Shown: positions 34,665 through 48,694 of the stretch, piece by piece | Position numbering within the stretch: position 1 is the first letter of the stretch | Layout of the letters: each line of letters opens with the position of its first letter | From: Candidatus Sericytochromatia bacterium | GTDB taxonomy: Bacteria; Cyanobacteriota; Sericytochromatia; S15B-MN24; UBA4093 | NCBI GenBank assembly: GCA_036676985.1 | Contig: JAKFBU010000039.1 | Span: 64,001 to 128,000 of the forward strand | Direction of reading: 5' to 3' | Length of the DNA: 64,000 bases | Made by a program: the position numbers and the translations under genes | Notes under the pieces: generated by a model | The model's database searches: none | What the model saw: only the letters and a program-made list of their open reading frames with translations | Told to the model about the DNA's origin: nothing

Positions 34665-34685
34665 CCGCTGGTCCGCCGACTCGTT

Positions 34686-34797
34686 CTCCCCCCTTCCCCC
34701 CCTGCTAGGGGGGGCCTTGTGCTGTGAGATCCCCGATCAGCTTCTCCGGGGAAGCCGGCAAAAAACTGCCCCCCCTAGCAGGGGGGGAAGGGGGGAA
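34686..34797. repeat. REP/MITE-like element with ~30-bp terminal inverted repeats (related to 18532-18675)
   Basis: ctccccccttccccccctgctagggggggc ... gccccccctagcagggggggaagggggga; between convergent genes. Confidence 0.8.
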
Positions 34798-34811
34798 GAG
34801 GAGTTGCCGCC

Positions 34812-35855
34812 TTAGAAGTTCGACTCCAGCCGCGACCTCGGCTGGTGCTCCCCTCGTTCCTGCAGGGCCCGGAACTCGTGCGCCTCCACGTAGACCTCGT
34901 TGACGTAGCGCATGGCCACGCCGGGGCGGATGGTCATGGGAGCCAGGTCCTCGCCCATGAGGAAGGAGCGCAGCGTCGCCTCCACCTCGTTGAAGCCGAA
35001 GTGCGCCCGGATCGAGACCGAGCTCGAGAAGCGGGCGTTGATCTCGAAGGCCGTGGGACGCCCCTCCCGGTTGCGCCGCAGCTGGACGTTGCACGCCCCG
35101 CGGATGCCGAGGGCCGTGACGATCCGGGCGACCTCGGCCTCCACGTCCGGGACCGGGCCCGCGACCGCGTTGGCGGTGCTGCCGTTGGAGAGCGATCGCC
35201 GGAGCGTCGCCACCCCCTTGAGCTCACCGTTGGCGTCGACGAAGGCCCCGCACGTGTACTCTTCGTCCGGCGTGCCCAAGTACTCCTGGATCACCGAGTT
35301 GGGCACCTTCTCGAGGAAGTACGCGAGCTCCGGAGCGCTCGAGACGACGTAAACGTCCCGCGAGGAGGCCCCCCGCCGCGGCTTGACGACGAGCGGAAAG
35401 CCCACCTCCGCGAGGAAGGCCTCCACGGCCTCCCACGCCACGGGCAGCGTGCTCCGGGCATAGGAGCAGCCGTGATCTCGCAGCCAGCAGGCCGTGCAGT
35501 ACTTGTCCTGGGTGATGGCGAGGACGTCCGGCGAGGTGACCATCACCTTGCAGCCGGTCGCCGCCTCGATGGCCTCGCGTCGCTCGGCCAGGGCGACGAG
35601 CTCCGGCTCGACGCCCGGCAGCCATGCATCGATGCGGTGGCGGCGCAAGAGGTCGATGAGCTGGGTCTCGTAGTCCGGGTGGCTGAAGGGCAAGACCAGG
35701 AAGGCCTGATCGACCCTGTAGAGTCCGGGGCTGTACGGGTTGATGTCCATGCCGAACGTCGTGGCCTCGAGGCCCGAGGCGTTGAGCGCCTTGAGGATCG
35801 ACTGAGCGGCCGTCCCGTTGAGGCCGCTGACCAGAACGTTATGAGGCATGGGCAC
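34812..35855 (-). CDS. ATP-grasp ligase (CarB-like, polysaccharide-locus type)
   Basis: QDKY, FPLVVKPRRGASS, IQEYL and FEINARFS motifs. Confidence 0.9.
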   Translation of the reverse strand: MPMPHNVLVSGLNGTAAQSILKALNASGLEATTFGMDINPYSPGLYRVDQAFLVLPFSHPDYETQLIDLLRRHRIDAWLPGVEPELVALAERREAIEAATGCKVMVTSPDVLAITQDKYCTACWLRDHGCSYARSTLPVAWEAVEAFLAEVGFPLVVKPRRGASSRDVYVVSSAPELAYFLEKVPNSVIQEYLGTPDEEYTCGAFVDANGELKGVATLRRSLSNGSTANAVAGPVPDVEAEVARIVTALGIRGACNVQLRRNREGRPTAFEINARFSSSVSIRAHFGFNEVEATLRSFLMGEDLAPMTIRPGVAMRYVNEVYVEAHEFRALQERGEHQPRSRLESNF

Positions 35856-36594
35856 GTCCTTCCAGGAGGCGCCCGATGCGTCCGACTTCCTCCGTGCGGT
35901 GGGCGTTCGAGCCGAGCGTGACCCATGCCCCCTCCCGGGCGCACACGTCGATCAGGCGCTCGAACTCCGCGGGGGGGACGTACTCGCCGTTGAGCTCGAT
36001 GGCCTTGCCGCAGCGCGCCGCCTTCCAGACGAGGAGGCGCAGGCCCTCTTCGGGGAAACTGCCGAATTGCTTGCGGGTGTAGGCCCCCGGGTGCGCGAGC
36101 ACGTCGAGGTCCGGGTGCTCCAGGAGCTCCCAGAGCGCCTGGAACTCGATCTCGGCGGCCTGGACCGCCGTCAGCTCGGAGGCCGGCACGAAGCCGCCCC
36201 GCCCGTCCGGGTAGTTGTGGCAGGCCCCGAGCACGAGCTCTGCCCGGGCGATCGTCGCCGCATCCGCGTCGAGGCCCCCCGACAGGTCGTAGGCCTTGGC
36301 CTCGAGGCCGATGAGGACGCGCAAGGACGGATAGGCCGCCGCCGCCCGCCGGATCTCGGCGTAGAAGCCGTCGTACCAGTCGATGCCGCGCCGGACGTGC
36401 TCGGTGAAGGCGACCAGCGTCAGGCCCGCCTGGCTGGCGGCCAAGAGCATCTCCTGGACCGTCGCGCGGCCGTCGGTATAGGACGTGTGCAGGTGCAGAT
36501 CGGTGACCAGCGCCTCGCGCATGAGCTCGGTGGCCGGAAAGACCGCCTCTCGCGCCAAGCGAAGCAGCCGCGGAGTCGACAGGGTGCGAAGCAT
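35839..36594 (-). CDS. PHP-domain phosphoesterase
   Basis: DLHLHTSYTDG, FTEH, LAHP and GSNAH motifs; the start may be ATG 36522. Confidence 0.9.
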   Translation of the reverse strand: MLRTLSTPRLLRLAREAVFPATELMREALVTDLHLHTSYTDGRATVQEMLLAASQAGLTLVAFTEHVRRGIDWYDGFYAEIRRAAAAYPSLRVLIGLEAKAYDLSGGLDADAATIARAELVLGACHNYPDGRGGFVPASELTAVQAAEIEFQALWELLEHPDLDVLAHPGAYTRKQFGSFPEEGLRLLVWKAARCGKAIELNGEYVPPAEFERLIDVCAREGAWVTLGSNAHRTEEVGRIGRLLEGRAHAS

Positions 36595-36830
36595 GGCGAT
36601 GTGCCCTTTCTAGGTCGTCGGCAGGAAGGACGGGCGATCGCACCACCCTTGCATGGTTGTATCAACTCGCCCGGCGCGACGATTGTGCAACCTCCACCAT
36701 GTTTCTCAACCTCCTCTCGGTTGATCGCTTTTGGGCCGGATCGTTAGGGTGAGGAGACACCTCCCCCTGTCTCCCGACCTGCCACCCATTACAGCCCGTG
36801 ACGCCGCCCTTTGAGAACGGAGAACGCGCC

Positions 36831-37472
36831 ATGAGAATCATCGCCATTGGGGCCCACCTGGACGACATCGAGCTCGCCTGCGGAGGGACGCTCGCCAAGG
36901 CCGTGAAGAACGGCCACGACGTGCGCATGCTGGTCCTCAGCGAGTCGGACTACACCAACTTCAAGGGGGACGTCCTCCGGACCAAGGGCCAGGCCCTCGA
37001 CGAAGGGAAGCGTGCCGCCCAGGTGCTCGGCGTCGATGACCTGGTGATCCTCGACAACCCCACAAAGGACATCCCCTACCACTCGACGGTCGTCGAGCAG
37101 ATCGAGGCCGAGATCACCGACTTCAAGCCCGATCTCATCTTCACGCACTGGGCCTTCGACACCCACCAGGCCCACCAAGGGACGGCCCTCTCCACCATCT
37201 CGGCCGCCCGTCGCCATTCCTCGATCCTCATGTACGAGCCCATCTCGCCCTCGGGACGCTCCTACGTCGGCTACCGGCCGCAGCTCTACATCGACATCAG
37301 CTGCAGCATCGACAAGAAGCTCAACTCCCTCAAGGCGCACCAGAGCCAGTACGAAAAGTACGGCGACTGCTGGATCGAGGCCATCGAGGCGCGAGCGCGC
37401 CACCGGGGCTTCGAAGGCGGCTACCGGTACGCCGAAAGCTTCGAAATCCTGCGCATGGGCCTGGCCCTCTAG
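36831..37472 (+). CDS. PIG-L/LmbE-family N-deacetylase
   Basis: AHLDDIELACGG, HWAFDTHQAH and HQSQ motifs. Confidence 0.9.
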   Translation: MRIIAIGAHLDDIELACGGTLAKAVKNGHDVRMLVLSESDYTNFKGDVLRTKGQALDEGKRAAQVLGVDDLVILDNPTKDIPYHSTVVEQIEAEITDFKPDLIFTHWAFDTHQAHQGTALSTISAARRHSSILMYEPISPSGRSYVGYRPQLYIDISCSIDKKLNSLKAHQSQYEKYGDCWIEAIEARARHRGFEGGYRYAESFEILRMGLAL

Positions 37473-37489
37473 TCGTCGGAGGGTACGCC

Positions 37490-38848
37490 ATGTCGACAGG
37501 CTCCCGGAATCTTGCCTCGGAGCCCCTGTCCAGCGCCCAGGGGGTTCTCCAGACCGCTCTCTACCAGGCGCAGCGCCGCTTGCGTTGGTGCCTCATGCAG
37601 CTGCGCGAAGCGGATCGTCGCGGGCTCCTGGCCCTCAGCGACGGCCTCCTCCTGTTTGTCGCGTGCTTTGGCGCCATGGCCTTTGCGGGCCTTCGTGACG
37701 CCGCCCTCCCGGCGGTCTTCTCGGCCGTCGGCATGGCGGCCCTCTACGCCTCGGATCAATACAACCTCCAAGCGCCCGAAGAGCGAGCCATCGGAAAGGC
37801 GATCGCCTTCGGAGCGCTCTGCACGCTCCTGGCGGCGTGGTCCGGGCACGATCCGCTCAAGCTCGCAGCGACGCTCGGCCTGGCGATCTGCCTGTCGCTC
37901 CTGATCGTGCTGTGGAGCCGGGCCCTGTGGATCCGGCTCCTCAGCCACCCCAGTTGCTCGCGCAAGACGATCCTGCTGTGCGATCGCCCCGAGTCCGAGG
38001 CGGCCCTCGCGGAGCTCGAGCAGCATCCGAGTGCCGGGTGGACCCCCATCGGCATCGGCGGCTCCTTGAGCCGGGCACATTCGGCGGACACCGTGCTAGC
38101 CGGGCCCTCGGCCATCCAGGAGCCCGAGTGGCTCTCGGCCATGCCGTCGGGCATCGAGACCCTGGATCTGCCTCGGCTCTTCGAGCGTCTCAGCAGGCGC
38201 GTCCCGGTCCGCTTTGTCGACGACCGCTGGTTCGTGGAGCAGTTCCCGTGGACCCGCGGCCTCGGCTACCACATCACCAAGCGGATGCTGGACATCGGCC
38301 TCAGCCTGCTCGGACTCTTGCTGGCAGCTCCCCTATTTCCCCTCATCGCCATCGCCAACCGGCTGGGCGACGGCGGCCCCCTCTTCTACTCCCAGCAGCG
38401 GGTGGGCCTCAACGACCAGACGTTCCGACTCTACAAGTTCCGGACCATGCGCACGGACGCCGAGAAGGAGGGGGCCATCTGGGCGAGCCAGGACGACGCT
38501 CGGGTCACGCGCCTGGGGCGCTTCTTGCGCCGGACCCGCCTGGACGAGATTCCCCAGCTCTGGAACGTGCTGGTGGGCCACATGAGCCTGGTGGGTCCGC
38601 GTCCCGAGCGACCCGAGTTCGTCGCCGAGCTCGAGCGCCAGATCCCGCACTACCCGCGCCGGCACTACGTCCTTCCGGGCGTCACCGGCTGGGCGCAGGT
38701 CCGGTTCCAGTACGGCTCGTCGGTGGACGACGCCGAGGAGAAGCTCAAGTACGACCTGTACTACCTCAAGCACCGCTCCCTGGTTTTCGACCTGCTCATC
38801 CTCGCCCGGACCGTCTCGGTCGTCCTGAACAAGACCGGCTCCCGCTAG
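37490..38848 (+). CDS. Priming polyprenyl-phosphate sugar phosphotransferase (WcaJ/WbaP family)
   Basis: KRMLDI, YKFRTM, LDEIPQLWNVLVGHMSLVGPRPERP and PGVTGWAQV motifs. Confidence 0.95.
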   Translation: MSTGSRNLASEPLSSAQGVLQTALYQAQRRLRWCLMQLREADRRGLLALSDGLLLFVACFGAMAFAGLRDAALPAVFSAVGMAALYASDQYNLQAPEERAIGKAIAFGALCTLLAAWSGHDPLKLAATLGLAICLSLLIVLWSRALWIRLLSHPSCSRKTILLCDRPESEAALAELEQHPSAGWTPIGIGGSLSRAHSADTVLAGPSAIQEPEWLSAMPSGIETLDLPRLFERLSRRVPVRFVDDRWFVEQFPWTRGLGYHITKRMLDIGLSLLGLLLAAPLFPLIAIANRLGDGGPLFYSQQRVGLNDQTFRLYKFRTMRTDAEKEGAIWASQDDARVTRLGRFLRRTRLDEIPQLWNVLVGHMSLVGPRPERPEFVAELERQIPHYPRRHYVLPGVTGWAQVRFQYGSSVDDAEEKLKYDLYYLKHRSLVFDLLILARTVSVVLNKTGSR

Positions 38849-38873
38849 CGCTGCGCAAGAAAGTAGGTGCCCC

Positions 38874-39629
38874 ATGATCGTGACCATCCACCAGCCCGAG
38901 CACCTGCCCTGGCTCGGGTACTTCCACAAGATGGCCCTGGCCGATCGCTACGTGGTCCTGGATGCCACCCAGTACCGGCACCAGTACTTCCAGAATCGCA
39001 ACCGCATCATCGGCAACTCCGAGCCCCTGTGGCTCACCGTCCCCATCCAGAAGCTCCGGACCCGCTACGGGCTCATCACCGAGCAGCTCATCGACCACTC
39101 CCACGCCTGGATCGACACCTACTGGAAGTCCATCGAGTACCAGTACCACCGCCATCCGTACTTCGACACCTACGGCCCGGAGCTCCGGGCCATCCTGAAG
39201 GCGGCCCCGGAGCACCTGGCCTCCCTCAACTACGCCCTCATCGACTTCTTCCGGCGCGCGCTCGCCATCGACACGCCGCTCGTGCTCGCCTCGAGCCTCG
39301 GGGTGCAGGGCCAAAAGACCGAGCTGATCCACGACCTCTGCCTCAAGACCGGGGCGACCGTTTACCTCTCGGGGCCGTCGGGCCGTGACTACCTGGACGA
39401 GACGCCTTTCCGACACTCGGGGATCGAGGTCTGGTACCACGACTTCCAGCACCCCCTCTACCCGCAGCGCAAGAAGAAAGCGTTCTTCTCGCACCTGTCG
39501 GCCCTGGACATGCTCATGAACTGCGGGCCGGACAGCCGCTACCTCCTGGGGCTGGACGACCTGGAGAGCGAGCGGGCGCGCTACCGGCAAGCCGGCGCCC
39601 GGCTCGCCCCGAGCCCGGTCGATTGCTAA
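38874..39629 (+). CDS. WbqC-family protein
   Basis: IHQPEHLPWLGYFHKM, FQNRNRI, YLSGPSGRDYL and LSALDML motifs. Confidence 0.92.
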   Translation: MIVTIHQPEHLPWLGYFHKMALADRYVVLDATQYRHQYFQNRNRIIGNSEPLWLTVPIQKLRTRYGLITEQLIDHSHAWIDTYWKSIEYQYHRHPYFDTYGPELRAILKAAPEHLASLNYALIDFFRRALAIDTPLVLASSLGVQGQKTELIHDLCLKTGATVYLSGPSGRDYLDETPFRHSGIEVWYHDFQHPLYPQRKKKAFFSHLSALDMLMNCGPDSRYLLGLDDLESERARYRQAGARLAPSPVDC

Positions 39630-40230: not shown

Positions 40231-40302
40231 CCAGCGACGATCCCCTCGCCGTCGCGGCCAGCATCCGGACGGCCAATCGCTCCAGGAGCGGAAGGAGGGC
40301 CC

Positions 40303-40512
40303 ATGATTCCGACGGCGAACTGGTACTGCGTCAAGTGTTCACGCTTTGTCGACAACCGCTCGGCCATCTGCGACGTCTGCGGGCGGACCCGCGGCAGCGC
40401 CCGTTCCCGATCGGCTCAGGAAGAGCCCAGCCTCTACTGGATCCGCGTGACGCCGGGCAGTAAGTCCGAGCGCGCGAAGGCCCCCGACCGCCGGTCGATG
40501 CCGCCCCGCTGA
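40303..40512 (+). CDS. Small zinc-ribbon (RanBP2-like) protein
   Basis: GGAGG RBS; WYCVKC-x10-CDVCG. Confidence 0.6.
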   Translation: MIPTANWYCVKCSRFVDNRSAICDVCGRTRGSARSRSAQEEPSLYWIRVTPGSKSERAKAPDRRSMPPR

Positions 40513-40587
40513 CCCCTCGTCGCTCCGGGGGCCGAACGGCCTCCGTGCAGGCCTTGCAGCCGATCCACGACAGGAGGTAGCCATCCG

Positions 40588-41367
40588 ATGACCAAGCGCA
40601 TCCTGTTCCTGTTGGCCTTGTGCTCTCTTGCCGGGTGCCAATCGACCCTGGCGCCCACCGCACCATCAGCCGTCCAGTCGGACCCTTACCAAACCCAGCA
40701 CCAGCCATCCATCGGCCACCTCAAGCAGGCCCTCGATCGACACAAAGGAAAGTGGTACGACAAGCACGGCTTCGTGCTGGTGCCCGCCCTCGAGATCGCC
40801 CGCTTTCAACTGAGCGTCCGGCCCGATGCCCCTCCGGAGGCCTGGGACGCCGCGACCCTGACGCTGATTAGCCCAGATCCCCTGGTGCCGCCCGTTTCTA
40901 GGACGCTCTACCAGGGGTCCGATCTCCTGGCGCTCGATGGCTCCTTCCAGGCGGCTGACTCGAGCCTCCCGGAGCTCATGCCGGGCGACTACACCGTCAC
41001 CCTCAGCCTCTGGCGGGACGGCCCCGCCGGGACCCTGGTCGGCGAGGACCAACAGGACGTGACGCTGGTAAACGGCTCCAACACCCTCGAGCTCAAGCCC
41101 TCCACCCTTGCGACCCTCGGCCTCAAGGACTTCGCGCCCACCTCGGCCGCGCCCGGTGCGACCGTGAGCCTCGTCGGGCAGGGCTTCAGCGTCCTGCCGG
41201 CTCAGAACCTCGTCACCATCGGCGGATCGGCCGTCCCGGTCGTGAGCGCGTCGAGCACGCAGCTGGACGTCGTCGCGCCGAACCTCCCGCCCGGCAGCTA
41301 CGCCGTCTGGGTCCAGGTCGGAGGCGGCATGGTCGGAAGGCTCGGCTTCACGATAACGGCCCCCTGA
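40588..41367 (+). CDS. Lipoprotein with beta-sandwich and IPT/TIG domain
   Basis: Lipobox LAGC; FAPTSAAPGATVSLVGQGFS...ASSTQLDVVAP is an IPT pattern. Confidence 0.82.
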   Translation: MTKRILFLLALCSLAGCQSTLAPTAPSAVQSDPYQTQHQPSIGHLKQALDRHKGKWYDKHGFVLVPALEIARFQLSVRPDAPPEAWDAATLTLISPDPLVPPVSRTLYQGSDLLALDGSFQAADSSLPELMPGDYTVTLSLWRDGPAGTLVGEDQQDVTLVNGSNTLELKPSTLATLGLKDFAPTSAAPGATVSLVGQGFSVLPAQNLVTIGGSAVPVVSASSTQLDVVAPNLPPGSYAVWVQVGGGMVGRLGFTITAP

Positions 41368-41374
41368 CGCCCCG

Positions 41375-41416
41375 AACGACGTCGCCCCCGCCGGCATCGG
41401 CGGGGGCGACGTCGTT
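41375..41416. terminator. Perfect 19-bp hairpin, probable bidirectional terminator
   Basis: aacgacgtcgcccccgccg-gcat-cggcgggggcgacgtcgtt; between convergent genes. Confidence 0.8.
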
Positions 41417-41422
41417 TGGGGA

Positions 41423-43228
41423 CTAGCGGACGCGCTGGGCCTTGAGGTCGCCCGCGTTGGCGGCGTCCTGGTAGGCGACCATGGCCGTCCGACCGGCGGG
41501 GTCCACCCCTACGGCCGCAGGTCCCTGGTCGCCAGCACCGGAGGCGATCGCGAAGTTGGCGCCCCACCGGGTGCCGTCGCTGCCCACGTACTGCCCGTAG
41601 ACGTCCGGCGCACCGTTGCGGCCGTCGGTCCAGGTCACGAGGAACTTCTGGCGGTAGGGCTGGTAGGCGAGCCGGGGAGCGCCCTTCGTGCCCGGGCCGT
41701 CGCCCACCGTGAAGGTCGCACCGAGGGCACCCGCGGTGCTCACGCGCCGGGCGACGACCTGCTGGGGGCTCGCCTGGCTCACCCAGGCCACGAGGAACTC
41801 CCCGGTGCCGGTATCCACGGCGATCCGGGGCTCGGCCTGGGGAACGGTCTCGCTGGGCGTGAGGTCGAAGGGTCCAACGACCAATGCGGCCGCCGACGAG
41901 GAGATGAGGCCCTTGAGGCGCCGGACGCCCGAGCTGTCGTCCTCCCAGACCAGGAGCATGCGACCGGAGGCCGGATCGGTCGCGATGACGGGATTCTCCT
42001 GGTTGCCCGACCCGCCGCCCGCCAGCGCCGCGCTGCCCACGGGCAGGCCGTTCGCGGCGAAGCGCAGGCCGTAGACGTCGCTTGTGCCCGTGCGGTTCTC
42101 CGCCCAGACCACCGCGTACTGGCCGCTCGCGGGGTTGAAGGTGAGCCGCGGCTTGGACTGGGGGAAGGCCCCGGTTGCCAGCCCGAAGGTCGTCCCGCTC
42201 AAGGTGCCGTCGGCGTTGACGATCTGGCCCCGGACGTCGCCCGAGTTCACCGCGTCCTCGTAAACGACGGCGTACTGGCCGAGGGTCGAGTTGTAGGCCA
42301 CCTCGGGGTAGCGCTGGTGTCCTGCTCCGTCGGCGATCGTGATCTCCGAGCCGACGAGGCTCCCGGTCACGCCCACCCGCCGGGCGTAGAGGCCGTGGTC
42401 GGAGGCACCCAGGCGATCGTCCTGCCACGCGACGAGGTACTCGCCGGACCCAAGGGCGATCGCGGGGGTCAGCTGGCTGGAGGCGAGGCTCACCCAGGAG
42501 AGGGCCGAGCCCATGAGGCCCAGCAGGGAGAAGCCCGTTCGGCCCGCGAGGGACGAACCCACCTGCAGCTGCCAGCTGGCGATCGACGCGGGGACGTCGG
42601 GCACGGTGGTCGTCAAGGAGCCGCTCGCGGCCGCGCTCACGGTCGCCGAGACGCCGCCCAGGGAGAGCAGATCCTGGCCGGGAAGGACGCTGATGCCCTG
42701 GCCCGACAAGGTGACGGTGTCGCCCACGAAGCCGTAGGCGGGCGAGAAGCCGGCAAGTCCGAGGGCGGGGTACACCTCGATGGGCACGGTCACGGCATTG
42801 GGACCGGCCGCCAGATCGAGGGTCAACGCCTTCTCGCCGACGAGCATGCCCGCGCTCCACAGGCTCACGGTGAGCGTGTAGCCCGGCGCCGGGCGCAACA
42901 GCCCGAAGGCCCCGGTGGCCGTGTAGCCGCCGGAGCCGTTGGGCGTGAGCTGGACGCCTTTGGTGAGGCTCTGAACCCGAGGGGATGACAGCGCGGTCGG
43001 ATGCGTCAGGTGCAGCGTGGCGGTGTCCCAGCTCGCGGGAAGCGCCTGGACGCTGCGCTCGGCGGCACTGATGGCGACCGAGAGGCTCAAGGTGCCCGCG
43101 ACGTCTCGCGTCAGGCTAAGCTCCCTATCGGGCAGGCGCTCGATCGCAGGGAGCTGCAGGACCGCGGGAGGCTGGCAACCTGCCAGCCCCACCACCGTCA
43201 GCCCCAAGAGCCAATGCGGCCTGGCCAT
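41423..43228 (-). CDS. Lipoprotein: beta-sandwich + IPT + C-terminal beta-propeller-like repeats (putative adhesin)
   Basis: Lipobox LAGC; six Q..P.(I/V)A...(Y/F)LV.W.D repeats. Confidence 0.82.
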   Translation of the reverse strand: MARPHWLLGLTVVGLAGCQPPAVLQLPAIERLPDRELSLTRDVAGTLSLSVAISAAERSVQALPASWDTATLHLTHPTALSSPRVQSLTKGVQLTPNGSGGYTATGAFGLLRPAPGYTLTVSLWSAGMLVGEKALTLDLAAGPNAVTVPIEVYPALGLAGFSPAYGFVGDTVTLSGQGISVLPGQDLLSLGGVSATVSAAASGSLTTTVPDVPASIASWQLQVGSSLAGRTGFSLLGLMGSALSWVSLASSQLTPAIALGSGEYLVAWQDDRLGASDHGLYARRVGVTGSLVGSEITIADGAGHQRYPEVAYNSTLGQYAVVYEDAVNSGDVRGQIVNADGTLSGTTFGLATGAFPQSKPRLTFNPASGQYAVVWAENRTGTSDVYGLRFAANGLPVGSAALAGGGSGNQENPVIATDPASGRMLLVWEDDSSGVRRLKGLISSSAAALVVGPFDLTPSETVPQAEPRIAVDTGTGEFLVAWVSQASPQQVVARRVSTAGALGATFTVGDGPGTKGAPRLAYQPYRQKFLVTWTDGRNGAPDVYGQYVGSDGTRWGANFAIASGAGDQGPAAVGVDPAGRTAMVAYQDAANAGDLKAQRVR

Positions 43229-43237
43229 GCGGACCTC

Positions 43238-44380
43238 CTAGTCGACCGTCAGGTTGATGGACGCCGGCTGGACCACGGCCAGGGGCTGGGTCCGGATCCG
43301 GATCAGGTTGTGGCTGTAGGTGTTGTCGTAGTAGCGGTAGATGAGGCGGTAGTTCTCGGAGAGCGCGGTCTCGTCGGCAAACGCGAAGGGGAAGTCGCCC
43401 GAGATGGTGTTCCAGTTGAACGTGCCCGCGAACGTGCCCGAGCCGGTGCGGGTCGCCGCGCCGCGCGCGGGCCAGGTGGCTCCGTCGCCCGAGTCGGCGA
43501 GGCTCGCCCAGGTCACGCCTCGAACGGGCTCGTTGTTGGCGCGCACCCAGTCGGTCAGCAAGGTCTCGCCAGCCAGGAGGTTGGCGCCGGTGGGCGAGAC
43601 GGTGCTGCGGGCGTAGCTCACCACCACCCGGCTCAAAACGCCGGGATCCAGGTCGCCGACCACCGAAACGGTGGAGCCGCCCGCGGTCACGCTCGCCCCG
43701 CCGTTGGCCGAGGAGTCGGCGAGCAGGGGATCCAGTACCAGCGTGTCGCCCGCCACGATGACCGGGGTGCCGGCGGGCCCGCCCAGGGTGCTGTTGTTGT
43801 TGGTGGCCGACGAGCGGATGAAGCCCGTCGTGTCGCTCACGGTGGTGTTGAGCTCCGTGCCGCCCGAGGCCCCCGTGCCGTCCGTGGTCTTCATGGTGAC
43901 GGTGAGCGCGGTGCTCGAGCCGCCGTTGAGCAGGAGGTTGGTCGTGTGGACCGCGACGCTCGTGCCCGTCCCGTTGGCACCCGAGAAGAGGGTGACCTGG
44001 AAGACGTAGTTGCCCGGGCGCAGGTTGGTGAAGGCCGCGGCGTTGGTGGACGAGTTGCCGGCGCCGTCCGTGAAGCCGGTCGCCCGGTTGATGGTCGCGA
44101 CCCGGTCCTGAGTGAGCTTGGCGGTGGCGTCCGACGAGTGAAGGCGCACCACCGCGCTGTCCCACGACGCAGGAAGGGCCTGGGCCCGGTAGCCGGTGGC
44201 GCGGGTCCGGTCGATGAGCGCCACCCGGACGAACGCCGGCTCGAGCGCCGCATCGCCGGAGAGCATCGTGAGCTTGAGCGGGGAGGTGCCCGCGGGCCCG
44301 GGAAACAGCGGCAAGGAGGCGCTGCATCCGCCCAACATCACAGAGAGGGAAATAGGCACGACGATGCGGGAGGATCTCAT
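43238..44380 (-). CDS. Ser/Thr/Gly-rich beta-strand lipoprotein (putative pilin-like subunit)
   Basis: AAAGGAG RBS, lipobox LGGC, YRAQALPASWD motif. Confidence 0.8.
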   Translation of the reverse strand: MRSSRIVVPISLSVMLGGCSASLPLFPGPAGTSPLKLTMLSGDAALEPAFVRVALIDRTRATGYRAQALPASWDSAVVRLHSSDATAKLTQDRVATINRATGFTDGAGNSSTNAAAFTNLRPGNYVFQVTLFSGANGTGTSVAVHTTNLLLNGGSSTALTVTMKTTDGTGASGGTELNTTVSDTTGFIRSSATNNNSTLGGPAGTPVIVAGDTLVLDPLLADSSANGGASVTAGGSTVSVVGDLDPGVLSRVVVSYARSTVSPTGANLLAGETLLTDWVRANNEPVRGVTWASLADSGDGATWPARGAATRTGSGTFAGTFNWNTISGDFPFAFADETALSENYRLIYRYYDNTYSHNLIRIRTQPLAVVQPASINLTVD

Positions 44381-44423
44381 GGCGTGATCTCCTTTCAAGT
44401 AGCGCGATGGGGGTCGCGTTCGG

Positions 44424-44843
44424 TTATTCGAGGATGAGCTGGAACTGGCCCTCGTCCGTGGTCAGGGACAGGCGGATGCGGGCCGCGACGGTGGCACCGG
44501 CCACGATGGTCACCGGCGAGCTGCCGGCTGCCACCACCTCACCCTCGGCGCTGTAGGCCTTGACCACGACGGTCTTGTCGCCAGCGGGCACGCCGGTGAA
44601 GTGGGCTTGGGTCTGCTCCGGGGTAAGAGAGGCCGAGAGGACGGAACCCTTGGGGATCCCCTCGCCGCTGACGCGGATCTCGATCCGGTCGGTGGTGTCG
44701 GGGATGGCCTGGACGGCCCGAGCCGGGAAGCGAGCCCGCATGATCAGCTCGCCATCGGTCCAGTCGGGCGTGGCCGGGTAGTAGGTACACCCCGTCACGC
44801 CCAAGATATTCAAGCTGATCATGAGTAGCGCGATCCGTTTCAT
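44424..44843 (-). CDS. Small single-domain lipoprotein related to its neighbours
   Basis: GGAGG RBS, lipobox VTGC, RAVQAIP motif. Confidence 0.8.
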   Translation of the reverse strand: MKRIALLMISLNILGVTGCTYYPATPDWTDGELIMRARFPARAVQAIPDTTDRIEIRVSGEGIPKGSVLSASLTPEQTQAHFTGVPAGDKTVVVKAYSAEGEVVAAGSSPVTIVAGATVAARIRLSLTTDEGQFQLILE

Positions 44844-44954
44844 CGGGAACCCTCCCTTGACCGCTATTAAAGATCGATTCGCTTAACAATTCAACATATA
44901 TTTTTGTGAAGATTCGACGCAAAGCGTTGGTCATTCCTCACAGGGGCGCAGCGC

Positions 44955-46160
44955 CTAGAAGTGAGCCTGGAGGTAGGGGCCGCCTTCGGTGAACCAAGAG
45001 AACGTTTCGGGTGATTGCTGCGTTCCCACAAGGGCCCGGACGCCGACGCGCAGACCGGGCGCAAGCTCCTGCTCGAGCGCGGAGTAGGCATAGGCACGGT
45101 AGGTGGGCTTCGAGACGATCATGGGGTCCACCCGCTGCACGGTGCCCTGGACCTGGACGTCGGTGGAGGCGAGCTTGACCTGATAGCCGAGGCGCAGGGT
45201 CTGGCCGTAGTAGCTGTTTCGCAGGGCCCGGGCATCCAAGCGCTCGGCCGAGAGCGTGCCGTACCACGTGCCGTTGGCGAACCCCCGGCCGTAGGTGCCG
45301 AGGCCGCCATACAGGTCGGTGTCGAGGAAGCTCAAGGTCTGGAAGGCGTTGGCCGCGCTCACCATCATGGCCCCGCCCTCGAAGACGTGCAGCCATGGGG
45401 TGAGCGGGTGGCTGAGGGCCATGGAGGTCACGAGGCTGCCGTAGTCGAAGCGCGAGTCGGCGAAACGCAGCGTCTGCTGCTCGATGTGGCCGAGCAGGAA
45501 GCCCCTCAGCATGGGCTGGTGGCTCTGGTGGGTGCCCTGGTAGCTCAGACGGGCTCCGCCGAGCGACGGGCCGCGCCCGAAATGGGCGACGTTGCTCGTC
45601 AGCAGCATCTGGGACATGGCCCGCCAGCGCCAGGCCTTCGGGCTCTCGGTCGCAAGGCCGTACGTGGCCTCTCGAGCGCTCGCCGCATAGGGCGCGGCCT
45701 GGTAACGCGCGGCGAAGGGCGGAGCGGCCGGTCGGGCAGTCGGAACCCGCATGCGCACCACCTGGGCCGAGGGTTTCAGCTTGACGCGATAGGTCTTGCC
45801 GACCATCCGCCATGAGGAGAACGGCGAGCCCTTGTGACCCTCCAGCTGCAAGGCCAGGCGCACCCATTTCTTGTCGAGCTGGTTGATGACGAGGCCCGCG
45901 ATGGGTCCGTCGGGCATGTCGCGCAAGGTGAAGTCGCCGACAAAGCGCGCGTTGCGGAAGTCGATGACCCAGGCCCCGAGATCCTTGCGGTAGCAGCTCA
46001 GGGGCGTGATGGGCCCCTTGGCCTCCAGGACGAGCTCGCGAGTGGCCGGATCGTAGCGGAGACGGTCAAGCTCGGTCAGCGCCAGCGAAGCGCTGGCGCC
46101 GACGGCTTCGACCCCCACGAGCAGGAGGCCGATCACTAGGACTTGCGAGGTGCGCTTCAT
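44955..46160 (-). CDS. AMIN-like domain plus C-terminal outer-membrane beta-barrel protein
   Basis: Signal peptide; WVIDFRNA and INQLDKKWVRLALQL are AMIN-like; amphipathic strands ending YLQAHF. Confidence 0.7.
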   Translation of the reverse strand: MKRTSQVLVIGLLLVGVEAVGASASLALTELDRLRYDPATRELVLEAKGPITPLSCYRKDLGAWVIDFRNARFVGDFTLRDMPDGPIAGLVINQLDKKWVRLALQLEGHKGSPFSSWRMVGKTYRVKLKPSAQVVRMRVPTARPAAPPFAARYQAAPYAASAREATYGLATESPKAWRWRAMSQMLLTSNVAHFGRGPSLGGARLSYQGTHQSHQPMLRGFLLGHIEQQTLRFADSRFDYGSLVTSMALSHPLTPWLHVFEGGAMMVSAANAFQTLSFLDTDLYGGLGTYGRGFANGTWYGTLSAERLDARALRNSYYGQTLRLGYQVKLASTDVQVQGTVQRVDPMIVSKPTYRAYAYSALEQELAPGLRVGVRALVGTQQSPETFSWFTEGGPYLQAHF

Positions 46161-46187
46161 ATCGCCCTCCGCGCTGCGGGTCCGACG

Positions 46188-46463
46188 CTACTCGACCTCG
46201 ACTCCCAGCCCCCCGATGATGGGGGCCGGCACCGCGTACTGGAGATCCGTGAAGACCTCGGCCGGCAGGAACGGGGGCTGCGCGAGCTCGCGCATCAAGG
46301 CCTCCTGGCTCTGCTCGGCAGGAGACAGCGAGGCAGTGGCCACCCGGGCCTTCGGGGCCTCGAGCGGCTCGGCTCGGAGCGACGGGGCGTACGCCAGGAG
46401 CACCGCCCCCAGTCCCACGGCAGCCCAGCGTGCCAGCAATCCGTCCTTCGTCTCTCTGTCCAC
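46188..46463 (-). CDS. Small exported hypothetical protein
   Basis: GTG start with GGAGG-like RBS; signal-like segment; upstream of the barrel gene. Confidence 0.55.
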   Translation of the reverse strand: MDRETKDGLLARWAAVGLGAVLLAYAPSLRAEPLEAPKARVATASLSPAEQSQEALMRELAQPPFLPAEVFTDLQYAVPAPIIGGLGVEVE

Positions 46464-46648
46464 CCTCCACCCCCTCGGCTGAAATTTGTTAAAAGTTACG
46501 AAGATATGTAAAGCACTGTAACAAGGATCGGCCCGCATGACAAGTAAGGGATCGGGAGGAAAGCTTTAACGAAGCTTGAAAGTGACTTAAGAATCATCCA
46601 CCTTAACAGCCCGATAACACCCGTGTTCCCCTCTGGAAGGAGAGAGCC

Positions 46649-47878
46649 ATGTCCAGCCCGATCTCGACCAGCTCGCGCCAGGTTCCCGTCGCGCCCCAGC
46701 GCCCCGCGGCTCCGGCCCAGCCCCGAGCAGAGATTTGCCGCGTGCAGGGCGACAGCCTGCAGCTCGGACGCCAGCTGCCGCCGTCCCTGATCGAGGCGGA
46801 CCTGCGCATGACCATGACGGGCGGCACGGCCCTTGCAGCCGACGGCACCGTCACCATCCAGAAGGCCTTCGTCGATCGCCTGGTTCGCCACGCCCTGAAC
46901 GGCAGCCAGGACATCAAGGACGCCCGGATCGCCTTCGATGCCCAAGAGGGCGCCTTCTCGGTCCAGGCCAAGGTCGTCGTCAAGGGGATCCAGGTCCCCG
47001 TCGCGCTCAAGATCGCTCCGTTGATCGACCAGAACCAGGTCAGCTTCCAGTTCCGCGAGGTCGCCATCCCCACCCGCTTCGGCTCCGTCGAGCTCGACAT
47101 CATCAAGCGCAAGGCGACCGAGGCGATCGCCAAGGAGCTTCGCTACAACGGCTTCGCGAATACGACCGACGCCAAGCGCGGTGTCGTCCGCATGGACGTC
47201 AACAGCCTGCTCAGCCGTCTGGGGGCGCTGCCCTCGTTCGCGCGCATCGACTTCGACAAGACCCGCCTCTCGCTGGACGTGCAGGCCAACGGCAACATGG
47301 TCGTCGGCATGACGTCTCCCCAGCAGGCCCCCGTGTTGCCCAACACCTCGGCGTCGGACATCTCGGTCTTCGCTGACCAGCAGGCACTGCAGCAGGCCCT
47401 GCGCCAGGCTCTGGCTCCCGACTACGAGCTCCAGAACCTCACGCTCGACCAGGGCCGGCTGAAGCTCGACGGCAAGGCCGAGTTCAAGCAGGGCAGCGAC
47501 GCCATCAACGGCATCAAGGCGCTGGCGCTCATCCTCGCGGTCGCCGCCCGGGACCCCGTGGCCACGCAGATGAACACCAACCCCGAGCGCTTGATGGTGG
47601 GGCTCAGCCTCGACATCAAGCAAGAGGGCACCCAGTTCGTCATCACCCCGAGCATCGGCAAGGCCCTGAGCTCGCTCGAGGAGTCCATCAAGAAGGCCGG
47701 CCTGAATCCGGTCTCGGACGGCAAGAGCATCCGGTTCGACCTCAACGCGGTCTGGAAGGACAACTGCGGGACGATCGACGACCTGACCGTGAAGCGCGAC
47801 GGCGCCGGCGCCCGCATGCGCCTGGACATCGATTCGTTCTTCGATTCGCCTTGGCTCAAGCGGGACAGCAACGCCTAA
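46649..47878 (+). CDS. Hypothetical protein with repeated alpha/beta domains (possibly tubular lipid-binding)
   Basis: AAGGAG RBS, host-like codon usage, low-complexity N-terminus and no Sec signal. Confidence 0.75.
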   Translation: MSSPISTSSRQVPVAPQRPAAPAQPRAEICRVQGDSLQLGRQLPPSLIEADLRMTMTGGTALAADGTVTIQKAFVDRLVRHALNGSQDIKDARIAFDAQEGAFSVQAKVVVKGIQVPVALKIAPLIDQNQVSFQFREVAIPTRFGSVELDIIKRKATEAIAKELRYNGFANTTDAKRGVVRMDVNSLLSRLGALPSFARIDFDKTRLSLDVQANGNMVVGMTSPQQAPVLPNTSASDISVFADQQALQQALRQALAPDYELQNLTLDQGRLKLDGKAEFKQGSDAINGIKALALILAVAARDPVATQMNTNPERLMVGLSLDIKQEGTQFVITPSIGKALSSLEESIKKAGLNPVSDGKSIRFDLNAVWKDNCGTIDDLTVKRDGAGARMRLDIDSFFDSPWLKRDSNA

Positions 47879-47891
47879 ACTCCGGCAGCGC

Positions 47892-48533
47892 CTACCGGCT
47901 CGAAACCAGCTCGCTCTCGACGTTCCAACCCGGGATGTTCAGGTCGCTCTTGACGATGCCGACCCCCGGGGCCACCCAGTAGTCTCCAACCGCCGTGTAG
48001 GCCTGCGCATGGGTGCCGATGGCGCTGACCTTGTACGCCCGGTGCGTTCCGGCGCCGACCGTGACCGTCTCCTGGCCCTTGGCCTCACCGATCCACAGGC
48101 CGTCGTCCCACTTGGTACCCGCCGTGAGCGGGAAGCGCAGGAAGTCGAAGCTGTGGCCCTCGACGGTCGCCGCCGCGACGCCCAGGTACTCCACGTCCCG
48201 GATCGTGACCTTGTCCGCGGTCATGGTGACGACCGGGTAGCGGTAGCGGGTGGTGAAGGAGTCGATGGCCCGCATGGACAGGACCGTGGCCGTGCCCTCG
48301 CGACGCACGGACTCGATCTCCATGGTCTCGGTGCCCTCGTAGTCCACGTAGGGATCGTCCGCCGGGTGCGCGACCACCTTGTACTGCCATGTGTGGCCGG
48401 GCGTCGCCGGGAACATGGGGGCCTCGGAGGCGGCCTTCGCCTTCGGGGCGACCGTCACCGTGCGCATGCCCGCAGGCACGCCGCACCCCGCCAGCACCGC
48501 CATTGCCAACCCCGCCGAAAGCCACTGCTTCAT
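47892..48533 (-). CDS. Lipoprotein with DUF3108-like beta domain
   Basis: Lipobox LAGC; G.TWQY, ETVTVGAG and WVAPGVGIVK motifs. Confidence 0.75.
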   Translation of the reverse strand: MKQWLSAGLAMAVLAGCGVPAGMRTVTVAPKAKAASEAPMFPATPGHTWQYKVVAHPADDPYVDYEGTETMEIESVRREGTATVLSMRAIDSFTTRYRYPVVTMTADKVTIRDVEYLGVAAATVEGHSFDFLRFPLTAGTKWDDGLWIGEAKGQETVTVGAGTHRAYKVSAIGTHAQAYTAVGDYWVAPGVGIVKSDLNIPGWNVESELVSSR

Positions 48534-48694
48534 GGTCGCGCTCCTCTCTAACATTAAGGCCAGTTTAACAGTTAACCTAAAGACCGGCAAGGCGTTCGTG
48601 AGGCATGCGCGAGGGCTGGCCCAAGAAGTTCTCGGCCCGGGGCTTGGCACCCCGGACACGGGCATGGCCCATGGACATGGAAGGAGGAAGGCCC

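What the first reader, a model, noticed from the sequence alone, without database searches (positions are those of the whole stretch)
40588..46463. Four related lipoproteins with an 'R-x-x-QA' site and mirrored N-/C-terminal strands: candidate type V-like (donor-strand) pilus outside Bacteroidota
Seen: all four lipoproteins share one beta-sandwich pattern, e.g. QALPASWDTATLHL..LRPAPGYTLTVSLW, QALPASWDSAVVRL..LRPGNYVFQVTLF, QAIPDTTDRIEIRV..VPAGDKTVVVKAY and PPEAWDAATLTL..LMPGDYTVTLSLW. In three of them an amphipathic strand follows the lipobox and is followed by a basic linker ending in QA (RSVQA, YRAQA, RAVQA). Two end in a free amphipathic strand that resembles their own N-terminal strand: PAFVRVAL vs C-terminal PASINLTVD, and GELIMRAR vs C-terminal GQFQLILE. 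The other two end in IPT or propeller domains instead. An AMIN/beta-barrel gene lies upstream on the same strand. Known: Bacteroidota type V pilins (FimA/Mfa1) are lipoprotein precursors whose first strand is removed by a protease and replaced by the C-terminal strand of the next subunit, and tip pilins lack the donor strand. Inference: 43238 is a major subunit, 44424 an adaptor/anchor, 41423 a tip adhesin, and 40588 an uncleaved variant.
Basis: partly seen in the sequence, partly recalled or inferred. Interest (0 to 1): 0.82.

Follow-up and report, generated by a model that had tools for sequence, protein, structure and literature searches.

The report
Lipoprotein–barrel envelope module, not proven pilus
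A gene cluster from a soil or groundwater bacterium encodes an outer-membrane barrel and four related lipoproteins built on a lineage-specific N-terminal domain; in outline they resemble pilus subunits, but nothing yet shows that they form a filament.

Summary
All four ORFs are lipoproteins and share one N-terminal beta-sandwich. An N-terminal strand followed by a basic loop ending in Q-A-[LI]-P is present in three. The free C-terminal strands of the 386-aa and 139-aa proteins are the most conserved segments of both families and always sit at the exact C-terminus.

The pilus reading is not established. There is no FimA/Mfa sequence signal. Fold matches to type V pilins (Z 5.3-6.2, N-domain only) tie with transthyretin and FN3. 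The shared domain is a class-specific module found at the N-terminus of 53 ORFs in this genome, ahead of Kelch, NHL, IPT or Big_2 domains.

The conserved unit is a three-gene set: an AMIN-linked 12-stranded barrel, the 139-aa lipoprotein and the 386-aa lipoprotein. All three occur in the same 5 of 47 class genomes. A dedicated barrel is not a described type V component.

Best reading: an uncharacterised, Sericytochromatia-type outer-membrane lipoprotein-barrel module, probably held together by strand docking. Donor-strand polymerisation remains a minority possibility of about 0.1. Interest is moderate.

The parts
44955..46160 (-). Outer-membrane protein, 401 aa: SPI-type signal peptide, AMIN-like domain (residues 29-128), disordered linker (131-173), 12-stranded beta-barrel (178-400) ending in F.
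   Evidence: ORF. Pfam AMIN E 0.0099, 16.4 bits, below the 20.5 cut-off. AF2 model mean pLDDT 71 with 12 strands. Foldseek finds generic barrels; best target coverage is KdgM, TMt 0.64-0.68. The barrel part occurs only in the 5 class genomes that also hold the 139 and 386 families.
44424..44843 (-). 139-aa lipoprotein: a stand-alone copy of the N-terminal module plus an extra terminal strand.
   Evidence: A2 has 18 sequences at 52-91% identity, with C19, G132, F134, L136, L138 and E139 invariant. N-module profile E 3.4e-31, but it was a seed. No Pfam or NCBIfam hit.
44727..44753 (-). N-terminal strand GELIMRARF of the 139-aa protein.
   Evidence: Translation. Mean column identity 0.78.
44700..44720 (-). 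RAVQAIP loop motif of the 139-aa protein.
   Evidence: R 16 of 18, Q 17 of 18, I and P 18 of 18.
44427..44450 (-). Terminal strand GQFQLILE of the 139-aa protein.
   Evidence: Mean column identity 0.88; last residue E in 18 of 18.
43238..44398 (-). 386-aa lipoprotein (the true start is probably M7 at 44380). Two beta-rich domains: a transthyretin-like N-domain and a Trp-rich C-domain.
   Evidence: A1 has 19 sequences at 55-88% identity, and the homologues begin at M7. AF2 model mean pLDDT 58.9, pTM 0.62. Residues 55-241 align to whole transthyretin chains at Z 6.1-6.8 with about 100 aligned residues. The family is narrow: 4 clusters at E<1e-10 among 1.84 billion representatives.
44213..44239 (-). 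N-terminal strand PAFVRVALI of the 386-aa protein.
   Evidence: Strand 55-61 in the model. The 41-63 segment has mean column identity 0.70.
44171..44212 (-). Basic A-B loop DRTRATGYRAQALP of the 386-aa protein.
   Evidence: Loop 64-72 has mean identity 0.44, with R/K in 19 of 19; QALPxxW has 0.80. pLDDT is below 50 for residues 63-75.
43241..43267 (-). Terminal strand PASINLTVD of the 386-aa protein.
   Evidence: Mean column identity 0.84; it is always the exact C-terminus. pLDDT is below 50 in the monomer model.
41423..43228 (-). 601-aa lipoprotein: N-terminal module (38-154), IPT-like domain (161-225), and a C-terminal repeat region that is probably a beta-propeller.
   Evidence: Full-length paralogues lie at C41 and C26 outside any such cassette.
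40588..41367 (+). 259-aa lipoprotein: N-terminal module without the R-x-x-Q motif, followed by IPT/TIG. It is a short paralogue of the 601-aa protein.
   Evidence: Pfam TIG E 2.7e-10. BLASTP vs 601 E 1e-26. N-module profile E 1.9e-9.
46515..46543 (-). Sigma-70-like promoter match upstream of the barrel gene.
   Evidence: One site found against 0.2 expected in shuffles. This is a consensus match only.

Best explanation
The region encodes an uncharacterised outer-membrane module specific to a Sericytochromatia-type lineage. The class name is inferred from the record titles of the homologues.

The conserved core is three genes in one operon: a barrel protein whose N-terminal AMIN-like domain would tether it to peptidoglycan, the 139-aa lipoprotein, and the 386-aa lipoprotein. 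The 601-aa IPT/repeat lipoprotein behind them and the 259-aa paralogue opposite are exchangeable accessories.

All four lipoproteins start with the same transthyretin/Ig-like beta-sandwich. This genome places that domain at the N-terminus of about 50 lipoproteins, in front of very different binding or enzyme-like domains. The shared 'R-x-x-QA' pattern is therefore the signature of a generic membrane-proximal stalk domain, not of a pilin.

Proposed mechanism (inferred, not shown). The lipoproteins sit at the outer membrane next to the barrel. The invariant free C-terminal strands of the 139-aa and 386-aa proteins are docking strands that add to an exposed sheet edge of a partner, either the barrel or an N-module. 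This would give a defined, non-filamentous complex that presents the C-domain and accessory IPT/repeat domains for adhesion or ligand capture.
For: Operon. The genes are tightly packed on one strand, with gaps of 111, about 25-43 and 9 nt, and one promoter-like site lies upstream.

Synteny. The order barrel, small lipoprotein, ~380-aa lipoprotein is kept in L001, L003 and L004.

Co-occurrence. Full-length 386 family: 5 of 47 class genomes including this one. Orthologue-level 139 family: the same 5, each 32-46 nt from the 386 homologue. Barrel part of the OMP: the same 5, adjacent in 4; in the fifth, a 64%-complete assembly, it lies on another contig.

Generic N-module. 53 of 3958 filtered ORFs match at E<=0.01. 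Of these, 47 of 53 have a lipobox-like Cys and in 51 of 53 the domain starts within the first 110 residues. Partner domains are Kelch, NHL, TIG and Big_2. The module occurs in 41 of 47 class genomes and in 0 of 121 sampled genomes of other classes of the phylum.

A second, paralogous set. At C38:169-183 kb, tandem cassettes combine N-module lipoproteins, barrel OMPs and lipoproteins ending in a lone strand behind a Pro-rich linker.

Terminal strands. They are the best-conserved segments, yet the one in the 386-aa monomer model is placed at pLDDT below 50. Endings of the type [LIVFM]x[LIVFM][DENQ] occur in 25 of 381 lipoprotein-like ORFs against 31 of 3577 others (odds ratio 8, p 6e-12).

Barrel. 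It has 12 strands and a generic fold; the best-covered Foldseek matches are small KdgM/OmpG-type barrels.
Against: No physical interaction has been shown. Localisation (periplasmic face or cell surface) is unknown.

The gene set used for genome-wide counts is a crude ORF filter (at least 80 aa, GC3 > 0.82, GC2 < 0.60) combined with a regular-expression lipobox. It misses known cases, including the 139-aa protein itself.

Outside the two barrel-containing loci, tagged lipoproteins have no barrel gene next to them, so the tag cannot be a barrel-specific signal in general.

The terminal strand may simply be the eighth strand of its own sandwich. The N-domain of the 386-aa model is already a complete transthyretin-like sandwich in cis.

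The model of the 386-aa protein is only moderately confident (mean pLDDT 58.9).
Confidence: 0.4

Rival explanations
1. Type V-like donor-strand pilus. A protease cuts the basic loop after the N-terminal strand. The lipidated strand leaves, and the C-terminal strand of the next subunit fills the groove. The 386-aa protein would form the shaft, the 139-aa protein an adaptor or base, and the 601-aa protein a tip.
For: Outline match with type V pilins as described in PMC13655056 (passages):
- lipobox;
- conserved N-strand;
- poorly conserved loop that always holds R/K (19 of 19) before a conserved Q-A-L-P;
- transthyretin-like N-domain plus a second beta-rich domain;
- a terminal strand that is the most conserved segment and always exactly terminal but is not confidently docked in cis.

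Eight type V pilin entries appear among the 50 listed VIA rows, at Z 5.3-6.2: 4h40, 3gf8, 3ufi, 4qdg, 5nf3, 5cag, 3up6, 5nf4 (I identify the six Bacteroides entries as type V pilins from recall).

Clusters of N-module lipoproteins elsewhere in the genome contain small tagged members beside large untagged ones (10 of 25 tagged against 62 of 366 untagged lipoprotein-like ORFs lie within 3 kb of an N-module gene, p 0.013). A subtilisin-like lipoprotein gene follows the operon in L004.
Against: No FimA/Mfa family signal in the four proteins or in the genome (control positive).

The structural matches cover one domain only and tie with FN3, CBM and transthyretin rows.

The N-strand resembles the C-strand no more than internal strands do.

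The supposed anchor carries the best-conserved R-x-x-Q site.

Only 6 of 53 N-module proteins end in a tag.

A co-inherited barrel has no counterpart in type V pili.

The shaft candidate is 55-88% identical across families of the class. I would not expect that of a surface pilin, but this is my judgement, not a test.

No protease gene is conserved at the locus.
Confidence: 0.1
2. Independent monomeric lipoproteins next to a peptidoglycan-tethered small porin. The N- and C-terminal strands are ordinary strands of their own sandwiches. The genes co-occur because they serve one pathway, for example capture and uptake of a substrate through a KdgM-like channel, without forming a stable complex through strand exchange.
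For: The N-domain is complete in cis in the model, aligning to whole transthyretin chains 10-125. Both termini look like generic amphipathic strands. The barrel is closest in size and shape to 12-14-stranded specific channels such as KdgM and OmpG. The VIA rows also include starch- and polysaccharide-binding sandwiches at the same Z. Partner domains of the N-module (NHL, Kelch, IPT) are typical binding or enzyme scaffolds.
Against: This reading does not explain why the terminal strands are the most conserved parts and never extended. It does not explain why lone strands sit behind Pro-rich linkers in paralogous cassettes. It does not explain the low confidence of the cis placement.
Confidence: 0.3
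3. Dedicated surface-lipoprotein translocon, working like Slam without being a member of that family. The barrel moves the two tagged lipoproteins to the cell surface, and the conserved C-terminal strands are the export signal.
For: The barrel co-occurs strictly with exactly the two lipoproteins that carry the tag, while the untagged 601/259 family also exists without a barrel. The second barrel locus likewise holds tagged lipoproteins. From recall: Slam substrates are recognised through their C-terminal strands.
Against: No DUF560 or TPR signal in the barrel protein. It has 12 strands, a narrow barrel. Most tagged lipoproteins in the genome have no barrel gene nearby.
Confidence: 0.15

Closest known systems
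Type V pili of Bacteroidia (FimA/Mfa1 superfamily)
   Same: Lipoprotein precursors; an N-terminal strand followed by a basic loop; a transthyretin-like beta-sandwich; a conserved C-terminal strand in some members and none in others; several paralogues in one operon.
   Different: No sequence membership. Only generic fold similarity. A different class of bacteria. A co-inherited 12-stranded barrel. One subunit has a single domain only (139 aa). The cleavage-like motif is present in the supposed anchor. No gingipain-type protease was found, but that search's control was silent.
Slam (DUF560) with its surface lipoproteins (Neisseria); comparison from recall
   Same: A barrel gene next to the lipoproteins it would serve; a conserved C-terminal element in the lipoproteins.
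   Different: No DUF560 or TPR signal. 12 strands rather than 14. An AMIN-like periplasmic domain. The lipoproteins do not end in a small barrel domain.
Peptidoglycan-tethered outer-membrane barrels (OmpA type; SLH-barrel OmpM type); comparison from recall
   Same: One chain combines a wall-binding domain and a membrane barrel joined by a flexible linker.
   Different: The wall-binding domain is AMIN-like and N-terminal. The protein is not a core gene (5 of 47 class genomes) and is always paired with two lipoproteins.
SusE/SusF-like surface lipoproteins of Bacteroidota uptake loci; comparison from recall
   Same: Tandem beta-sandwich lipoproteins encoded beside an outer-membrane channel; N-terminal Ig-like stalk domains.
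   Different: The barrel is a small 12-stranded one, not a TonB-dependent transporter. There is no SusD-like partner and no glycan-degrading genes in the operon.
Transthyretin / 5-hydroxyisourate hydrolase fold
   Same: The N-domain aligns over about 100 of about 115 residues at Z 6.1-6.8.
   Different: 9-16% identity, no catalytic context, and Z below the level that separates relatives from common arrangements.

Membership tests
Type V pilin (FimA/Mfa1 superfamily) | Lipoprotein precursor with a lipobox cysteine | tested here: met
   LAGC, LAGC, LGGC and VTGC. The Cys is invariant in A1 (C25) and A2 (C19).
Type V pilin (FimA/Mfa1 superfamily) | Sequence match to the FimA/Mfa Pfam families | tested here: not met
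   No such family at E<=0.1 in any of the four proteins. PF06321 has no match in the 100%-complete genome, while the control rang in Bacteroides thetaiotaomicron. Profile searches of PDB sequences with A1 and A2 found no pilin.
Type V pilin (FimA/Mfa1 superfamily) | Two beta-sandwich domains in a transthyretin-like arrangement | tested here: inconclusive
   The N-domain is transthyretin-like at Z 6.1-6.8. Type V pilin chains score Z 5.3-6.2 with 100-120 aligned residues in the N-domain only, tied with FN3 and CBM rows. The C-domain is beta-rich but barely tested. The 139-aa protein has one domain only.
Type V pilin (FimA/Mfa1 superfamily) | Anchor strand followed by a loop with a conserved Arg/Lys that a protease cuts | tested here: inconclusive
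   Strand and loop are present. R/K is in the loop in 19 of 19 (386 family); R42 is kept in 16 of 18 (139 family). Cleavage itself cannot be tested here. PF01364 (gingipain family) was not found, but the control rang nowhere.
Type V pilin (FimA/Mfa1 superfamily) | C-terminal donor strand that replaces the neighbour's anchor strand | not testable with these tools
   A conserved, strictly terminal strand exists. Insertion in trans needs a structure or biochemistry.
Type V pilin (FimA/Mfa1 superfamily) | Division of labour: the anchor lacks the cleavage site and the tip lacks the donor strand | tested here: inconclusive
   601 and 259 lack a terminal strand, which fits a tip. The 139-aa 'anchor' has the best-conserved R-x-x-Q motif, which does not fit an anchor (anchor described as lacking the site in PMC13655056).
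IPT/TIG domain (PF01833) | Score above the Pfam gathering cut-off | tested here: met
   259 aa: 40.5 bits against 20.9. 601 aa: 19.2 bits, just below, but it aligns with the 259-aa domain in BLASTP.
AMIN domain (PF11741) | Score above the Pfam gathering cut-off | tested here: not met
   16.4 bits against 20.5, E 0.0099. A beta-rich domain is modelled at residues 29-128, so AMIN-like is a reasonable but unproven label.
Outer-membrane beta-barrel (12-stranded, KdgM-like in shape) | Closed antiparallel barrel, C-terminal aromatic residue, signal peptide | tested here: met
   12 strands at 178-400, pLDDT mostly 75-88. 77 Foldseek matches at E<=1e-3, all among the 50 listed are barrel proteins; KdgM TMt 0.64-0.68. 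All 10 sequences in A3 end in F. No Pfam family, so this is the fold only, not KdgM membership.
Slam (DUF560) | DUF560 barrel with a periplasmic TPR domain | tested here: not met
   No Pfam hit other than weak AMIN. The model has an AMIN-like domain and 12 strands.

The most novel reading that the evidence does not exclude
The C-terminal tags are donor strands of a lipoprotein assembly system that arose independently of Bacteroidia type V pili or diverged from them beyond recognition. In Sericytochromatia-type bacteria, many lipoproteins built on one N-terminal transthyretin-like module would be linked head-to-tail or to small tagged anchors. After cleavage of the basic R-x-x-Q loop, the tag would take the place of the lipidated N-terminal strand (or fill the free edge next to strand G). 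The 386-aa protein would form a short fibre rooted at a dedicated peptidoglycan-tethered barrel.
Probability: 0.1. Interest if true: 0.85.

Novelty: new variant of a known kind. Interest (0 to 1): 0.45.

Why it matters
Sericytochromatia are the non-photosynthetic sister lineage of the oxygenic cyanobacteria, and their cell envelope is essentially unstudied. A full-text search for 'Sericytochromatia' with 'lipoprotein' and 'outer membrane' returned one unrelated paper.

This work defines three things:
- a class-restricted N-terminal lipoprotein domain with about 50 copies per genome;
- a strictly co-inherited barrel plus two-lipoprotein module;
- a recurrent terminal-strand tag.

If the tag mediates strand complementation, this would be a second, independent use of the protease- or strand-exchange principle so far described only for Bacteroidia type V pili (stated as unique to that class in PMC13655056). 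If it does not, the locus is still a compact, testable entry point to how these bacteria display surface proteins.

Tried and rejected
Complex prediction. Two copies of residues 73-386 of the 386-aa protein were folded with alignment A1. The job was accepted after repeated queue-full answers and collected. Verdict 'no answer': runs 0.58, 0.29, 0.24, median below the 0.42 mark, controls not run. This is neither support nor evidence against.

Foldseek of the 386-aa model against PDB: no match at E<=1e-3; the best rows were an archaeal S-layer protein and transthyretins at E 0.01-0.1.

ESM Atlas. 386 aa: best score 0.88 to unnamed clusters. 139 aa: 0.96-0.93 to unnamed clusters labelled Ignavibacteriota and Myxococcota, none with a Pfam family. 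These are leads only and were not followed up.

PDB sequence profiles with A1 and A2: nothing meaningful.

Sequencing runs: 20 rows hold all or part of the stretch, in soil, rhizosphere and groundwater metagenomes; no RNA holder is listed.

Rfam over 40300-46900: one sub-threshold SECIS_2 hit (30.7 bits against 70), taken as chance. No terminator-like site.

Barrel-specific tag idea: rejected as a general rule, because tagged lipoproteins at C23, C56, C59, C33 and C74 have no barrel gene beside them.

Core envelope component idea: rejected, because the three genes are absent from 42 of 47 class genomes, including all 9 other genomes of the same family.

One script failed on a division by zero and was corrected. 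Supplements of the cited paper were not consulted.


Full report
WHAT IS THERE

The window has about 68% G+C. On the minus strand, four tightly packed genes run from 46160 down to 41423:
- a 401-aa protein with a signal peptide (44955-46160);
- a 139-aa lipoprotein (44424-44843);
- a 386-aa lipoprotein (43238-44398; homologues start at its M7);
- a 601-aa lipoprotein (41423-43228).

A 259-aa lipoprotein (40588-41367) lies convergently on the plus strand. One sigma-70-like site lies upstream of the first gene, and no terminator-like site was found. Homologues carry record titles such as 'Cyanobacteria bacterium UBA8530' and 'Candidatus Sericytochromatia bacterium'.

CHECKING THE OBSERVATION

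All quoted strings are present. The relatedness results are:
- 259 vs 601: clear paralogues over the N-terminal roughly 250 residues (E 1e-26).
- 386 vs 601: one shared domain (E 1e-7).
- 139 vs the others: not significantly similar pairwise.

I then built a profile from 13 N-terminal modules of this genome that carry R..Q.[LIVF]P; 601 and 139 were among them. It recovers the non-seed 259-aa protein at E 1.9e-9 and the 386-aa protein at E 3.5e-8. The four proteins do share one beta-sandwich.

In alignments of orthologues (A1: 19 sequences at 55-88% identity; A2: 18 sequences at 52-91%), the terminal strands are the most conserved segments, with mean column identity 0.84 and 0.88. No sequence extends beyond them. 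The loop after the N-terminal strand is among the least conserved parts (0.44), yet it holds R or K in 19 of 19 sequences. The following Q-A-L-P is well kept: Q in 15 of 19, L and P in 19 of 19. In the small protein, R is kept in 16 of 18 and Q in 17 of 18.

The claimed likeness of each protein's N- and C-terminal strands exists: rank 5 of 369 windows for the 386-aa protein, and ranks 2 and 6 of 124 for the 139-aa protein. Internal strands score as high or higher, so the likeness is that of amphipathic strands in general.

STRUCTURES

The 386-aa protein folds with moderate confidence (mean pLDDT 58.9, pTM 0.62) into two beta-rich parts. The signal and tether, the basic loop (63-75), a long linker (169-207) and the last eight residues all fall below pLDDT 50.

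Foldseek finds nothing at E<=1e-3. VIA-align places residues 55-241 on whole transthyretin chains (Z 6.1-6.8, about 100 aligned residues). In the model, therefore, the N-terminal strand is strand A of a transthyretin-like sandwich that is complete in cis.

Eight entries that I recognise as type V pilins, Mfa1 and Mfa3 among them, appear among the 50 listed rows at Z 5.3-6.2. They cover only this one domain and are tied with FN3, CBM and transthyretin rows. By the tool's own calibration, Z below 8 can reflect a common arrangement. The C-domain was barely tested.

The 401-aa protein folds (mean pLDDT 71) into a beta-rich domain at 29-128 (Pfam AMIN E 0.0099, below cut-off), a disordered linker, and a 12-stranded barrel ending in F. 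Its structural neighbours are generic barrels, with the best coverage for KdgM and OmpG. The best-covered matches are small barrels, not large pilus ushers (recalled as about 24 strands) or secretins.

THE SHARED PATTERN IS A GENERIC, CLASS-SPECIFIC N-TERMINAL MODULE

In a crude gene set of 3958 ORFs, 53 match the module profile at E<=0.01. Of these:
- 47 of 53 have a lipobox-like Cys in the first 75 residues;
- in 51 of 53 the domain starts within the first 110 residues;
- only 6 of 53 end in a terminal-strand tag.

Behind the module come Kelch, NHL, IPT/TIG or Big_2 domains. Pfam has no model for the module itself. With the A2 profile, the module is found in 41 of 47 genomes of the class. 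In a sample of the phylum it occurs in 24 of 29 further class members and in 0 of 121 genomes of other classes. The full-length 386 family is very narrow: 4 clusters at E<1e-10 among 1.84 billion representatives.

THE CONSERVED UNIT IS A TRIO THAT INCLUDES THE BARREL

Full-length relatives of the 386-aa protein occur in 5 of 47 class genomes, including this one. None occur in the 9 other genomes of its own family. Orthologue-level matches to the 139-aa protein occur in the same five genomes, 32-46 nt from the 386 homologue. The barrel part of the 401-aa protein occurs in the same five; it is adjacent in four and lies on a separate contig in a 64%-complete assembly.

Gene order is kept in L001, L003 and L004. 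An IPT-type lipoprotein follows in the window, L001 and L004, but not in L003. A subtilisin-like lipoprotein follows only in L004. The 601-aa family also has two full-length paralogues elsewhere in this genome without such neighbours. The module is thus an accessory, patchily distributed trio with exchangeable extras.

RELATED CASSETTES AND THE TAG

At C38:169-183 kb this genome has three tandem sets. Each set holds:
- a 286-343-aa N-module lipoprotein; two of the three end like the 386 family (…ASIGTVTMN, …ASITPATLN);
- an N-module-NHL lipoprotein carrying R-x-V-Q;
- in two of the three sets, a barrel protein, one of them with an AMIN-like start;
- a lipoprotein that ends in a Pro-rich linker plus a lone six- or seven-residue strand.

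The C-terminal 40 residues of one of the first type align weakly with those of the 386 family (E 0.0046).

Genome-wide, endings of the type [LIVFM]x[LIVFM][DENQ] are found in 25 of 381 lipoprotein-like ORFs against 31 of 3577 others (odds ratio 8, p 6e-12). Tagged lipoprotein-like ORFs lie within 3 kb of an N-module gene more often than untagged ones: 10 of 25 against 62 of 366 (p 0.013, clusters not independent). Most tagged genes have no barrel next to them.

HOW IT MOST LIKELY WORKS

What is shown:
- a co-inherited operon of a wall-tethered small barrel and two lipoproteins;
- a generic N-terminal stalk domain;
- strictly terminal, highly conserved strands.

What is inferred: the proteins form an outer-membrane complex, and the terminal strands dock onto a partner's sheet edge. 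I favour a defined hetero-complex over a filament for four reasons. The barrel is part of the unit. The N-module is shared by about 50 unrelated-looking lipoproteins. One of the tagged proteins is a single domain. The proposed shaft is strongly conserved.

My data exclude none of them. The pilus model keeps about 0.1, because the outline match is real and the terminal strand's conservation calls for an interaction.

COMPARISON WITH WHAT IS KNOWN

[quoted passage not shown] - are built from lipoprotein pilins with two transthyretin-like sandwiches;
- are matured by Arg-specific cleavage of the beta1-beta2 loop;
- polymerise through a C-terminal donor strand that displaces the anchor strand; anchors lack the cleavage site and tips lack donor strands.

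In this locus the lipobox is met. Sequence membership is not met. The fold is inconclusive. The cleavage site is plausible but untestable here. Strand exchange is untestable with these tools. The role pattern is only half consistent. I therefore do not file the locus as a type V pilus. It may or may not work like one.

I found nothing in print on this system. The searches were 'Sericytochromatia' + 'lipoprotein' + 'outer membrane' (one unrelated paper) and type V pili outside Bacteroidota (listing only, nothing relevant).

VERDICT

The feature is a real, uncharacterised, lineage-specific envelope module of moderate interest, with a low-probability but high-value reading that simple biochemistry could settle.

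Noticed in passing
own genome, contig C38:169300-182900 (loci L010, L011, L014-L020): Three tandem cassettes. Each holds an N-module lipoprotein of about 290-340 aa, an N-module-NHL-propeller lipoprotein and a lipoprotein with TTVAPL repeats, a helical part and a Pro-rich linker ending in a lone strand (…KVGITLE, …GLDVTFN, …IGVVLQ). Two of the three also hold a barrel protein.
   Followed up: partly
whole own genome (script counts): Lipoprotein-like ORFs end in a hydrophobic-alternating strand closed by D/E/N/Q about eight times more often than other ORFs. Several of them follow a Big_2-like domain with G-D-x-E-L-x-[VI]-E at the very end. This could be a sorting or assembly tag.
   Followed up: partly
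window 30800-39629 (+): A polysaccharide-synthesis-looking gene set lies convergent with the operon: a long Wzz/kinase-like protein, a LmbE-like deacetylase, a sugar transferase and a WbqC-like protein. I read these from the translations; they were not searched. This neighbourhood is not kept in L001, where ExbB/ExbD-like and flagellar genes flank the cluster instead.
   Followed up: no
L004:13264-14565 (+): A subtilisin-like (S8-looking) lipoprotein gene lies directly after the 612-aa IPT/repeat lipoprotein. It was seen only in this relative, and I read it from the translation.
   Followed up: no
window 41423-42500 (-), C-terminal half of the 601-aa protein: About seven repeats of roughly 45 residues, of the type Y/F-x-V-x-W-x-D-x-R-x-G-x-x-D-[IV]-Y-G. 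There are weak NCBIfam hits to a beta-propeller repeat and to a Leptospira LIC12048-family lipoprotein. Full-length paralogues lie at C41:144591-146471 and C26:222607-224469.
   Followed up: partly
window 44380-44398 (-): The listed TTG start of the 386-aa ORF is probably too far upstream. All 18 homologues align from its seventh residue, an ATG.
   Followed up: yes
window 46649-47878 (+) and 47892-48665 (-): A 409-aa protein with no family match is transcribed divergently from the operon. Next to it lies a lipoprotein with a weak DUF3108-like match.
   Followed up: no
own genome C26:92478-93977 (-): A 499-aa protein shares only the AMIN-like N-terminus with the barrel protein (E 7e-13). Similar N-terminal-only matches occur in most genomes of the same family.
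   Followed up: no
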